Positions 505-601 of a DNA stretch of 15,323 nucleotides are shown here, in pieces; within the stretch, counting starts at the first letter, position 1, and each line of letters opens with the position of its first letter. The stretch is from a virus. The stretch lies in the UHGV virus genome UHGV-1764124, one strand, 5' to 3'. Below the pieces are notes generated by a model that was not told where the DNA came from, ran no database searches, and saw only the letters and a list, made by a program, of their open reading frames with translations. Position numbers and translations under genes: made by a program.

Positions 505-521
505 ATTACCTTACGGGTAAT
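505..521. promoter_or_regulatory. Operator-like palindrome ATTACC-ttacg-GGTAAT (candidate repressor site O1)
   Basis: Perfect 6-bp inverted arms with a 5-bp spacer, followed by a T7 tract; lies 19 bp upstream of the -35 TTGACA. A near-identical site recurs at 11425-11441. Confidence 0.35.
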
Positions 522-539
522 TTTTTTAACTCATATCTA

Positions 540-568
540 TTGACACCAAACCAAATAAGCATAATTAT
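540..568 (+). promoter_or_regulatory. Candidate sigma70 promoter of the early operon
   Basis: Perfect -35 TTGACA at 540-545. Two -10 candidates: CATAAT at 560-565 (14-bp spacer) or AATTAT at 563-568 (17-bp spacer). Sits upstream of SD GAGGT (589-593) and ATG 602. Exact -10 is unresolved. Confidence 0.4.
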
Positions 569-583
569 TACCCCAACGGTAAC
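567..583. promoter_or_regulatory. Second operator-like palindrome ATTACC-ccaac-GGTAAC (candidate site O2) overlapping the -10 / transcript start region
   Basis: Matches 11 of 12 arm positions of the O1 motif; an extra GGTAAC half-site at 591-596 overlaps the SD. Confidence 0.3.
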
Positions 584-601
584 AGACCGAGGTAACAAGT
601 T

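What the first reader, a model, noticed from the sequence alone, without database searches (positions are those of the whole stretch)
505..596. Recurrent ATTACC-N5-GGTAAT palindrome brackets the early promoter (candidate operator set)
Two 17-bp palindromes share the ATTACC half-site: 505-521 (perfect arms) and 567-583 (ATTACC-ccaac-GGTAAC). A further GGTAAC half-site lies at 591-596. They flank and overlap a perfect -35 TTGACA at 540-545, immediately downstream of the HTH regulator gene and its terminator. This is the classic layout of repressor operators around an early promoter. The cognate protein would most simply be the HTH protein at 50-448.
Basis: seen in the sequence. Interest (0 to 1): 0.55.

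Follow-up and report, generated by a model that had tools for sequence, protein, structure and literature searches.

The report
Known phage repressor operators bracketing promoter
The two 17-bp palindromes are real and are the binding sites of the prophage repressor around the leftward early promoter of an epsilon15/phiV10-type E. coli phage, a switch that is already annotated and structurally studied in close relatives, so the finding is correct but ordinary.

Summary
ATTACC-N5-GGTAAT occurs at 505-521 (perfect) and 567-583 (one mismatch), with a third perfect copy at 11425-11441. There are 5 hits at up to 2 mismatches against 0.49 expected.

The window is a fragment of an epsilon15/phiV10-like temperate podophage (Uetakevirus). 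It is 96% identical to phiV10 here, and the region occurs in about 10% of complete E. coli genomes. The epsilon15 GenBank record annotates the homologous palindromes as repressor-binding sites.

Eleven of 14 relatives from six further genera keep the same geometry: O1, 18 bp, CTATTGAC(-35), 17 bp, xATTAT(-10) overlapping O2, with O1 to O2 at 62 bp. The other three have 61 or 63 bp.

The gene at 50-448 is the 3' part of the homologue of SPC32H Rep (PDB 5D50). Its N-terminal DNA-binding domain is cut off because the contig ends in a Nextera adapter. The window also carries the LexA-controlled antirepressor Ant (88% identical to 5D50 chain E), with its own Rep operator.

The extra GGTAAC at 591-596 overlaps the ribosome-binding site and is not conserved as a half-site. 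The terminator reading of 505-527 is weak.

Verdict: interpretation supported, already known, low interest.

The parts
50..448 (+). 3' part of the prophage repressor gene rep (C-terminal 132 aa: middle dimerisation plus C-terminal tetramerisation/Ant-binding domains). The N-terminal DNA-binding domain is missing because the contig starts here.
   Evidence: Matches PDB 5d50_A residues 66-197, E 3e-21. 96% nt identity to phiV10 gp40. The full-length 194-aa protein is read in near-identical L006. Domain layout from PMC9986798.
469..495 (+). Intrinsic terminator of rep
   Evidence: 8-bp GC-rich stem plus T-run. RNA fold -15.4 kcal/mol. Annotated as a terminator in phiV10.
505..521 (.). Operator O1 (perfect ATTACC-N5-GGTAAT), centred about 62 bp upstream of the predicted start site
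   Evidence: Homologous to the epsilon15 annotated repressor site 32616-32632. Half-sites invariant in the 11 aligned relatives with 62-bp spacing.
521..527 (+). T-tract after O1, at about -55 to -48 of the promoter (possible UP-element-like A/T tract)
   Evidence: Largely conserved in the 11 aligned relatives, but broken in Superficieibacter and absent in Scandinavium. The function is an inference.
540..545 (+). -35 hexamer TTGACA of the leftward early promoter (PL-like)
   Evidence: CTATTGAC is invariant in all 14 relatives shown.
563..568 (+). -10 hexamer AATTAT (17-nt spacer)
   Evidence: xATTAT is present at this position in 9 of the 11 aligned relatives.
567..583 (.). Operator O2 (ATTACC-N5-GGTAAC). 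It overlaps the end of the -10 and the predicted +1.
   Evidence: Homologous to the epsilon15 annotated repressor site 32554-32570. O1-O2 spacing of 62 bp is conserved.
589..596 (+). Not regarded as an operator.
   Evidence: 8 nt separate it from the ATG at 602. GGTAAC is present in 9 of 19 distinct short leaders and absent from long-leader relatives, whereas an SD-like purine run is common.
602..754 (+). First gene of the early-left operon (epsilon15 gp37 homologue). It is followed by the gp36 homologue, a YqaJ exonuclease, RecT, AlpA-like, PerC-like and MT-A70 methylase genes.
   Evidence: phrog_898. Pfam hits. Annotation of relatives.
11425..11441 (.). Third operator of the same type (perfect), between the tailspike gene (8202-11321, minus strand) and ant
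   Evidence: Homologous to the epsilon15 annotated repressor site 19895-19911.
11480..11495 (.). LexA box CTGTATAAATATACAG upstream of ant
   Evidence: Only CTGT-N8-ACAG in the window. Conserved in phiV10, epsilon15 and SPC32H.
11517..11774 (+). Antirepressor gene ant
   Evidence: 88% identical to SPC32H Ant. PDB 5d50_E, E 4e-47. The ant gene is annotated at the same place in SPC32H.
5822..5838 (.). Weak motif copy TATACC-N5-GGTAAT, 42 bp upstream of int (4530-5780, minus strand). Status uncertain.
   Evidence: 2 mismatches. The same degenerate copy is conserved in epsilon15, phiV10 and SPC32H. The epsilon15 record annotates that spot as integrase/RNase III sites, not as a repressor site.

Best explanation
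Sites 505-521 (O1) and 567-583 (O2) are operators of the prophage repressor Rep of an epsilon15/phiV10-type temperate podophage. They bracket the sigma-70 promoter (TTGACA 540-545, AATTAT 563-568) that drives the leftward early operon: the gp37 and gp36 homologues, exonuclease, RecT and further genes.

Rep is a tetramer whose N-terminal HTH domains pair up on the ATTACC/GGTAAT half-sites. O2 overlaps the -10 and the start site, so bound Rep excludes RNA polymerase. O1 lies 62 bp upstream, about six helical turns and so on the same face of the DNA. It probably adds affinity, either by cooperative binding or by being held by the same tetramer, and it covers the UP-element position.

The same repressor also binds a third operator at 11425-11441, next to ant. 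Induction does not go through RecA cleavage of Rep. LexA (box at 11480-11495) keeps ant off. After DNA damage Ant is made, binds the C-terminal domains of Rep and takes the tetramer apart, which frees the operators.

Shown here: the sequence features, their conservation and their homology. Taken from the literature on SPC32H: tetramer binding and the action of Ant. Inferred: occupancy of these particular sites, the start site, and the role of O1.
For: - Motif statistics: 5 hits against 0.49 expected, with 3 strong sites all intergenic.
- The epsilon15 GenBank record AY150271.2 annotates the positionally homologous palindromes as 'protein_bind: repressor, lysogeny'. It does the same for the site upstream of the tailspike gene.
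- In relatives the motif is almost exclusively intergenic. In epsilon15, 11 of 11 sites with up to 1 mismatch fall in the 6.6% of non-coding DNA (P 1e-13). SPC32H has 11 of 12 and phiV10 7 of 9.
- The geometry is identical in phages and prophages of Escherichia, Salmonella, Enterobacter, Citrobacter, Superficieibacter and Erwinia: O1 start +35 = -35 start, and +62 = O2 start. It is 63 bp in Klebsiella and 61 bp in Scandinavium. The N5 spacers and flanks differ between them.
- In IMG/VR, 127 of 164 distinct matches to the two-palindrome pattern have 62-bp spacing.
- The adjacent gene is the Rep homologue (PDB 5d50_A, E 3e-21; full length 42% identical to SPC32H Rep).
- NLVNRW in the predicted recognition helix is invariant in 7 Reps that are otherwise 42-76% identical. 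This matches the shared half-site.
- Ant (88% identical to the crystallised protein) and its LexA box are present.
- Literature: Rep binds palindromic DNA as a tetramer, and an Ant tetramer splits it (PMC9638917). Rep has an N-terminal DBD, a middle dimerisation domain and a C-terminal tetramerisation domain (PMC9986798).
- Overexpressing the repressor of phage ZX5, whose DNA is 96.9% identical to the window over 53-1056 (which includes this repressor gene), abolished free phage and cut lysis-gene transcripts by more than 99.9% (PMC9782041).
Against: - No footprint, gel shift or mapped start site exists for the phiV10-type sequence. The ZX5 paper only speculates about PL.
- The primary papers that describe the epsilon15 operators and SPC32H Rep-operator binding are not in the held library. 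What they report about operator binding is therefore cited only from memory, from the GenBank annotation and from secondary papers.
- The repressor's DNA-binding domain is not in the window, so the pairing is inferred from 96-99% identical relatives.
- A Cro-like protein encoded divergently from rep (phrog_35) could share some of these sites.
- Promoter-like hexamer matches as a class are not enriched in the window.
Confidence: 0.88

Rival explanations
1. The 505-527 hairpin (ATTACC-TTACG-GGTAAT followed by T7) is a second, back-up intrinsic terminator for rep transcripts rather than, or in addition to, a protein-binding site.
For: The RNA folds as a 9-bp stem followed by a T-run, at -6.9 kcal/mol and z -3.9. 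The T-run after O1 is kept in most relatives.
Against: - It is much weaker than the real terminator 20 bp upstream (-15.4 kcal/mol). With only 2 G-C pairs in the 6-bp arms it fails the scan's stem criterion.
- The same palindrome recurs at O2, at 11425 and at 7-8 other intergenic places in relatives without a T-run.
- The T-run is broken or absent in the Superficieibacter and Scandinavium prophages, although the palindrome is kept there.
- The stem varies only in the loop (N5). This is what a protein site predicts and says nothing for an RNA stem.
Confidence: 0.07
2. The palindromes are bound mainly by a different phage regulator, for example the Cro-like protein encoded divergently from rep (phiV10 gp41 / epsilon15 gp39, outside the window), and not by Rep.
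For: That protein belongs to a family named 'transcriptional repressor' (phrog_35, E 6e-13). In lambdoid phages Cro and CI share operators (established knowledge).
Against: - The epsilon15 annotation assigns the sites to the lysogeny repressor.
- The Rep recognition helix is invariant in step with the invariant half-site.
- Rep is reported to bind palindromic DNA as a tetramer.
- The sites are spread over many lytic promoters of the genome, which fits a prophage repressor. Shared binding by both proteins is not excluded and would not contradict the main explanation.
Confidence: 0.04
3. The palindromes are chance A/T-rich inverted repeats in an intergenic region and have no function.
For: Intergenic phage DNA is A/T-rich, and short palindromes are common in it.
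Against: - 0 of 200 shuffles reach the observed count.
- The half-sites are invariant across genera while the spacers and flanks vary.
- Intergenic enrichment reaches P down to 1e-13 in epsilon15 for sites with up to 1 mismatch.
Confidence: 0.01

Closest known systems
Repressor-binding sites of Salmonella phage epsilon15 (GenBank AY150271.2 features 32616-32632, 32554-32570, 32479-32494, 19895-19911 and others; Kropinski et al. 2007, cited from memory and not readable here)
   Same: - The same 17-bp ATTACC-N5-GGTAAT palindrome.
- The same position between rep and the gp37 homologue.
- The same O1-O2 spacing of 62 bp, and the same offset to an identical CTATTGAC -35.
- The same extra site between ant and the tailspike gene.
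   Different: - epsilon15 has a third full operator 76 bp downstream of O2 and a leader about 70 nt longer. The window (phiV10 type) has only O1 and O2 and a short 18-nt leader.
- The Reps are only 42% identical.
- The phiV10 record itself does not annotate operators.
Rep-Ant switch of Salmonella phage SPC32H (PDB 5D4Z, 5D50; Kim & Ryu 2013, Kim et al. 2016)
   Same: - A Rep homologue next to the operators.
- Ant 88% identical.
- A LexA box in front of ant.
- The operator motif and layout are identical in the SPC32H genome.
   Different: - The Rep of the window's type is 42% identical over its full length.
- The window holds only the C-terminal two-thirds of the gene.
- Binding has been studied for SPC32H, not for this immunity type.
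Lambda cI - OL/PL - early-left operon
   Same: - The same gene order: repressor gene, terminator, operators and leftward promoter, then recombination genes and int.
- 17-bp partially symmetric operators that occlude the core promoter (established knowledge compared).
   Different: - Lambda has three adjacent operators inside the promoter. Here two sites 62 bp apart bracket it.
- Rep has no S24 peptidase autocleavage domain (Pfam finds only HTH-type families). It is inactivated by an antirepressor rather than through RecA.
- Rep operators are scattered at about eight promoters over the genome.
LexA-controlled antirepressors of Gifsy/Fels-type prophages and P22 ImmI Ant
   Same: The induction logic is the same: the SOS response controls an antirepressor, not cleavage of the repressor (PMC7380047 lists antirepressors for the Fels-2 and Gifsy prophages; LexA box).
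   Different: The Ant proteins are unrelated. Here Ant sits beside the tailspike gene and also carries a Rep operator.
Rco/Rap of Bacillus plasmid pLS20 (TetDloop tetramerisation domain)
   Same: An N-terminal HTH DBD plus a C-terminal p53-like tetramerisation domain, with relief by a partner protein (PMC9986798).
   Different: Rep has an additional middle dimerisation domain. DNA looping is shown for Rco and not for Rep.

Membership tests
epsilon15/SPC32H-type Rep operators (Uetakevirus immunity system) | 17-bp hyphenated palindrome ATTACC-N5-GGTAAT | tested here: met
   505-521 has 0 mismatches, 567-583 has 1, and 11425-11441 has 0.
epsilon15/SPC32H-type Rep operators (Uetakevirus immunity system) | Positional homology to sites annotated as repressor-binding in epsilon15 (between rep and gp37; between ant and the tailspike gene) | tested here: met
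   same order, same 35-bp and 62-bp offsets, same -35.
epsilon15/SPC32H-type Rep operators (Uetakevirus immunity system) | Cognate Rep homologue encoded next to the sites, with a conserved DNA-recognition helix | tested here: met
   The Rep fragment matches 5d50_A. The full-length protein in the 99.4%-identical L006 is 42% identical to SPC32H Rep. NLVNRW is invariant. The DBD itself lies outside the window.
epsilon15/SPC32H-type Rep operators (Uetakevirus immunity system) | Motif confined to intergenic promoter regions across the phage genome | tested here: met
   3 of 3 sites in the window, 11 of 11 in epsilon15, 11 of 12 in SPC32H, 7 of 9 in phiV10.
epsilon15/SPC32H-type Rep operators (Uetakevirus immunity system) | LexA-controlled Ant antirepressor partner | tested here: met
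epsilon15/SPC32H-type Rep operators (Uetakevirus immunity system) | Physical binding of Rep to these sequences and repression of the promoter | not testable with these tools
   Only indirect evidence: the ZX5 repressor overexpression phenotype and secondary reports of SPC32H Rep binding palindromic DNA.
Lambda CI/LexA-type autocleavable repressor system | C-terminal S24 peptidase domain that mediates RecA-stimulated autocleavage | tested here: not met
   Pfam finds only HTH-type families in the full-length Rep. The C-terminal part matches the SPC32H dimerisation/tetramerisation domains.
Lambda CI/LexA-type autocleavable repressor system | Three adjacent operators overlapping the -35 and -10 | tested here: not met
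   Two sites 62 bp apart. Neither overlaps the -35.
Rho-independent terminator (for 505-527) | Stable G+C-rich stem directly followed by a U-run, conserved as a unit | tested here: inconclusive
   The stem is -6.9 kcal/mol, with 2 G-C pairs in the 6-bp arms, and is followed by a T7 run. It is not reported by the terminator scan. The T-run is lost in two lineages that keep the palindrome.

The most novel reading that the evidence does not exclude
The 62-bp (about 6 helical turns, plus or minus 1 bp) O1-O2 spacing is kept across many lineages. It is repeated at a second promoter of the relatives' genomes, upstream of the DUF1064/RuvC-like gene.

This could mean that one Rep tetramer, whose two DNA-binding pairs are formed in trans between its dimers, holds both operators at once. 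The core promoter would then be enclosed in a tight micro-loop, rather than repressed by simple occlusion at O2.

Ant-driven splitting of the tetramer would open the loop. A secondary paper states that the structural mechanism of repression by this Rep 'has not been extensively characterized'.
Probability: 0.3. Interest if true: 0.4.

Novelty: already known. Interest (0 to 1): 0.15.

Why it matters
It matters little as a discovery. The operator motif, its positions and the Rep-Ant-LexA switch are already described for epsilon15 and SPC32H, and the region is present in about one in ten complete E. coli genomes.

There are three modest practical values:
- The phiV10-type E. coli phages, whose records lack operator annotation, can be annotated by transfer: O1, O2, PL, the ant operator and the LexA box.
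- All these Reps share one half-site despite 42% identity. This predicts cross-immunity between E. coli, Salmonella, Klebsiella and Citrobacter members of the genus.
- The fixed 62-bp bracket offers a simple genetic test of whether the tetramer loops the promoter.

Tried and rejected
- **Primary papers.** I could not open Kropinski 2007, Kim & Ryu 2013 or Kim 2016 by DOI or PMC id. A full-text search for the half-site strings gave only irrelevant papers. A search for operator descriptions in phiV10/Uetakevirus papers gave only the ZX5 paper, which maps no operator.
- **Third half-site GGTAAC at 591-596 as an operator element: rejected.** Its left partner (580-585, AACAGA) matches ATTACC at only 2 of 6 positions. 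It overlaps the SD GAGGT. Only 9 of 19 distinct short leaders keep it, and long-leader relatives have none.
- **Second terminator at 505-527.** Judged weak.
- **Structured RNA.** No Rfam family is found anywhere in the window. The 5' leader fold over 562-600 is not better than shuffles (z -1.5).
- **Motif copy 7536-7552 (2 mismatches).** It lies inside the holin-like gene and is not matched in relatives, so I treat it as chance. The copies with 3 mismatches are near the chance expectation (11 against 5.0).
- **Distant homologues of the Rep DNA-binding domain.** Those in Paraburkholderia, Hydrogenovibrio and Thiomicrospira have no such motif nearby, so the operator-repressor pair cannot be traced beyond the enterobacterial genera sampled here with these data.
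- **A Firmicute-type phage locus with similar TTACC-N5-GGTAA sites.** Its repressor is an unrelated XRE/ImmA pair, so this is convergence and not membership.

Full report
**What is in the sequence**

Reading 1-1500 confirms every coordinate in the finding:
- ATTACC-TTACG-GGTAAT at 505-521.
- ATTACC-CCAAC-GGTAAC at 567-583.
- GGTAAC at 591-596.
- TTGACA at 540-545.

A scan for ATTACCN5GGTAAT with up to two mismatches gives 5 hits against 0.49 expected, and none of 200 shuffles reaches 5.

TTGACA-17-AATTAT (540-568) shares the top score (10 of 12) among promoter-like sites in the window. Such matches as a class are not enriched. A strong terminator (469-488 plus T-run, -15.4 kcal/mol) follows the upstream ORF.

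One detail needs correcting. Neither palindrome overlaps the -35. O1 ends 18 bp upstream of it, and O2 overlaps the last two bases of the -10 and the expected start site.

**What the window is**

Megablast shows an epsilon15/phiV10-like temperate podophage of the genus Uetakevirus. Identity is 99.4% to Escherichia phage Phi05_1387 B. Over 50-1056 it is about 96% to phiV10, TL-2011b and ZX5. Over the recombination genes it is about 81% to epsilon15.

The gene content fits this assignment:
- rep, two small genes, a YqaJ exonuclease and RecT.
- AlpA-like and PerC-like genes and an MT-A70 methylase.
- Integrase, the lysis cassette and the tailspike.
- A small plus-strand gene, then virion proteins.

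The 440-760 stretch occurs in 558 of 5426 complete E. coli genomes.

Both ends of the window are Illumina Nextera adapter sequences: 1-49 with index ACTGCATA, and 15275-15323 with index CGAGGCTG (read directly; adapter identity from my own knowledge). The ORF at 50-448 is therefore a 5'-truncated gene.

**The sites are the known repressor operators**

The epsilon15 GenBank record annotates three 'protein_bind: repressor, lysogeny' features between its repressor gene and gp37. It annotates further ones upstream of the terminase gene, gp3, the tailspike gene and the RuvC-like gene. Their sequences are ATTACC-N5-GGTAAT.

I compared the rep-to-gp37 intergenic region in phiV10, Phi05_1387 B, BUCT554 (Enterobacter), epsilon15, PAT1, SPC32H and a Klebsiella phage. 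I also included prophages of Superficieibacter, Erwinia, Klebsiella, Citrobacter and Scandinavium, which were found by Rep homology and not by the motif. All show one architecture:
- O1, then 18 bp, then an invariant CTATTGAC.
- A 17-nt spacer, then a -10 that reads xATTAT in 9 of the 11 aligned relatives.
- O2, starting 62 bp after O1 (63 bp in Klebsiella, 61 bp in Scandinavium).

Across the 11 relatives with 62-bp spacing, the half-sites are conserved in every sequence: TTACC and GGTAAT in O1, ATTAC and GGTAA in O2. The N5 spacers and the flanks vary.

A pattern scan of IMG/VR returned 164 distinct matches to the two-palindrome pattern, 127 of them with 62-bp spacing. The 61- and 63-bp variants I inspected in E. 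coli-type sequences differ by one T in the T-tract.

In annotated genomes the motif is almost purely intergenic:

| Genome | Sites with up to 1 mismatch in non-coding DNA | Non-coding fraction | Binomial P |
|---|---|---|---|
| epsilon15 | 11 of 11 | 6.6% | 1e-13 |
| SPC32H | 11 of 12 | 7.0% | 2e-12 |
| phiV10 | 7 of 9 | 6.5% | 1.6e-7 |
| window | 3 of 3 | 9.8% | 1e-3 |

**The cognate protein**

The 132-aa fragment encoded at 50-448 matches residues 66-197 of the SPC32H repressor (PDB 5D50 chain A, E 3e-21). The full-length 194-aa protein, read from the near-identical Phi05_1387 B, is 42% identical to SPC32H Rep.

According to PMC9986798, Rep has three parts: an N-terminal DNA-binding domain, a middle dimerisation domain and a C-terminal tetramerisation/Ant-binding domain. 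The window therefore contains the right gene but not its DNA-binding domain. The HTH_3 match in the fragment falls in the middle domain.

In an alignment of seven Reps, NLVNRW is invariant although overall identity is only 42-76%. I place it in the recognition helix of the N-terminal HTH by analogy with P22 C2-type HTH domains, which is an inference. It agrees with the shared half-site.

PMC9638917 reports three things about Rep. It binds palindromic DNA as a tetramer. The paired DNA-binding domains come from different dimers. A tetrameric Ant splits the Rep tetramer.

For phage ZX5, whose DNA is 96.9% identical to the window over 53-1056, overexpressing the repressor abolished free phage and cut holin and endolysin transcripts by more than 99.9%. 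No operator was mapped there.

**The rest of the switch is in the window**

The gene at 11517-11774 is 88% identical to SPC32H Ant, the protein crystallised in 5D50. SPC32H annotates ant at the same place.

This gene is preceded by the only CTGT-N8-ACAG in the window, CTGTATAAATATACAG at 11480-11495. This LexA-box consensus is conserved in phiV10, epsilon15 and SPC32H.

The perfect operator at 11425-11441 lies between ant and the tailspike gene. It corresponds to the epsilon15 annotated site 19895-19911.

**Mechanism**

The best-supported reading is as follows. Rep bound at O2 occludes the -10 and start site of the leftward early (PL-like) promoter. O1, about six helical turns upstream at the UP-element position, contributes cooperative or bidentate binding. 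Rep also controls the ant/tailspike intergenic region.

LexA keeps ant silent. SOS induction produces Ant, which dismantles the Rep tetramer and frees the operators.

The bases for these steps differ:
- Shown here: the sequence features, their conservation and their homology.
- From the literature on SPC32H: the oligomeric mechanism.
- Inferred: occupancy of these particular sites, the start site and the role of O1.

**Parts of the finding that do not hold**

*The GGTAAC at 591-596.* It overlaps the Shine-Dalgarno GAGGT (589-593, with 8 nt between it and the ATG at 602). Its would-be left partner matches the half-site at 2 of 6 positions. Only 9 of 19 distinct short leaders retain GGTAAC, and relatives with a long leader have none. 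It is not an operator element.

Relatives of the epsilon15 type have a full third operator and a leader about 70 nt longer. The short form may derive from a deletion between O2 and O3, which is an inference.

*The terminator alternative for 505-527.* It is weak: -6.9 kcal/mol against -15.4 for the true terminator, with only two G-C pairs in the 6-bp arms. It is not reported by the terminator scan. The T-run is lost in two lineages that keep the palindrome.

**Comparison with known systems**

The layout resembles lambda cI-OL/PL-N/red in gene order and in using 17-bp operators. It differs in three ways:
- It has a two-site, 62-bp bracket instead of three adjacent sites.
- Rep has no S24 autocleavage domain, and induction runs through an antirepressor.
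- Rep operators are scattered at about eight promoters over the genome.

By every sequence criterion I could test, this is a member of the epsilon15/SPC32H Rep-operator system. Only physical binding is untestable here.

**Novelty and score**

This is already known. The phiV10 record lacks operator annotation, so the call is useful for annotation transfer but not surprising.

One reading is somewhat novel and not excluded. The conserved 62-bp spacing may reflect a single tetramer clamping both operators around the promoter. The same spacing is repeated at a second, apparently paralogous promoter module in the relatives' genomes. I give this about 0.3 probability.

Interest is 0.15.

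Noticed in passing
window 1-49 and 15275-15323: Both ends of the window are untrimmed Illumina Nextera adapters...ATCTACAC-ACTGCATA-TCGTCGGCAGCGTCAGATGTGTATAAGAGACAG, and CTGTCTCTTATACACATCTCCGAGCCCACGAGAC-CGAGGCTG-ATCTCGT. They truncate rep at one end and a virion gene at the other (ORF 14448-15254 matches only positions 321-594 of phrog_1145). Some public phage records (ev017, ESSI2_ev129) matched the window only through this adapter, at their own record ends (H27-H30).
   Followed up: partly
window 11480-11495 and 11517-11774: A LexA box (CTGTATAAATATACAG) sits in front of a gene 88% identical to the crystallised SPC32H antirepressor Ant. 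The SOS-antirepressor induction arm of the switch is therefore inside the window.
   Followed up: yes
window 5822-5838: A degenerate motif copy, TATACC-TTTAA-GGTAAT, lies 42 bp upstream of int. It is flanked by the inverted repeat ACGGTAT/ATACCGT. The same degenerate copy is conserved in epsilon15, phiV10 and SPC32H. The epsilon15 record annotates that spot as integrase and RNase III sites, not as a repressor site. It is unclear whether Rep touches it.
   Followed up: partly
L004 (phiV10) 35069-35147; L003 (epsilon15) 35906-35984; L010 122-200; L011 100-178; L012 93-171: A second operator-bracketed promoter module has the same 62-bp spacing and the same CTATTGA -35 offset. It lies upstream of the DUF1064/RuvC-like gene. 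There the right half of the downstream operator (GAGGTAAA) doubles as the ribosome-binding site. It is outside the window.
   Followed up: partly
window 11384-11393 (minus strand ATGTGGTTTT), next to a lone ATTACC at 11375-11380: On the tailspike strand the sequence reads ATGTGGTTTTCCA-GGTAAT-AGAAT. The same ATGTGGTTTT box precedes the downstream operator of the second module in relatives. It may be a shared promoter or activator element of late or middle genes. This is unexplained.
   Followed up: no
window 7896-8201: phiV10, epsilon15 and SPC32H carry an O-antigen modification gene and a Rep-type operator between the tailspike gene and the lysis cassette (for example phiV10 24691-24707). The window has only about 300 bp of unrelated A/T-rich DNA there and no operator.
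   Followed up: partly
L004 (phiV10) 86-102 and 104-120: Two operator-like sites fall inside the annotated 5' end of the phiV10 small terminase CDS (41-715). In epsilon15 the homologous site precedes the gene. The phiV10 start codon may be annotated too far upstream.
   Followed up: no
L045 589-688 (IMG/VR contig 2891085538_000002); also L135 and L057: Firmicute-type (about 40% G+C) phage switch regions carry four TTACC-N5-GGTAA palindromes around a TTGACA. They lie between divergent XRE-type repressor genes, with an ImmA-like protease gene downstream. The half-site resembles the one here, but the repressor is unrelated.
   Followed up: partly
L078 about 7251-7371: An iteron-like tandem array of GTTACCGTTTTGGTAACC units lies at the end of an IMG/VR contig. 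Its nature is unknown.
   Followed up: no
alignment A1 (Rep proteins): Reps of E. coli, Salmonella, Enterobacter and Klebsiella members share an invariant NLVNRW and the same operator half-site, although they are only 42% identical overall. This predicts cross-immunity at the level of Rep between phages with different hosts.
   Followed up: no
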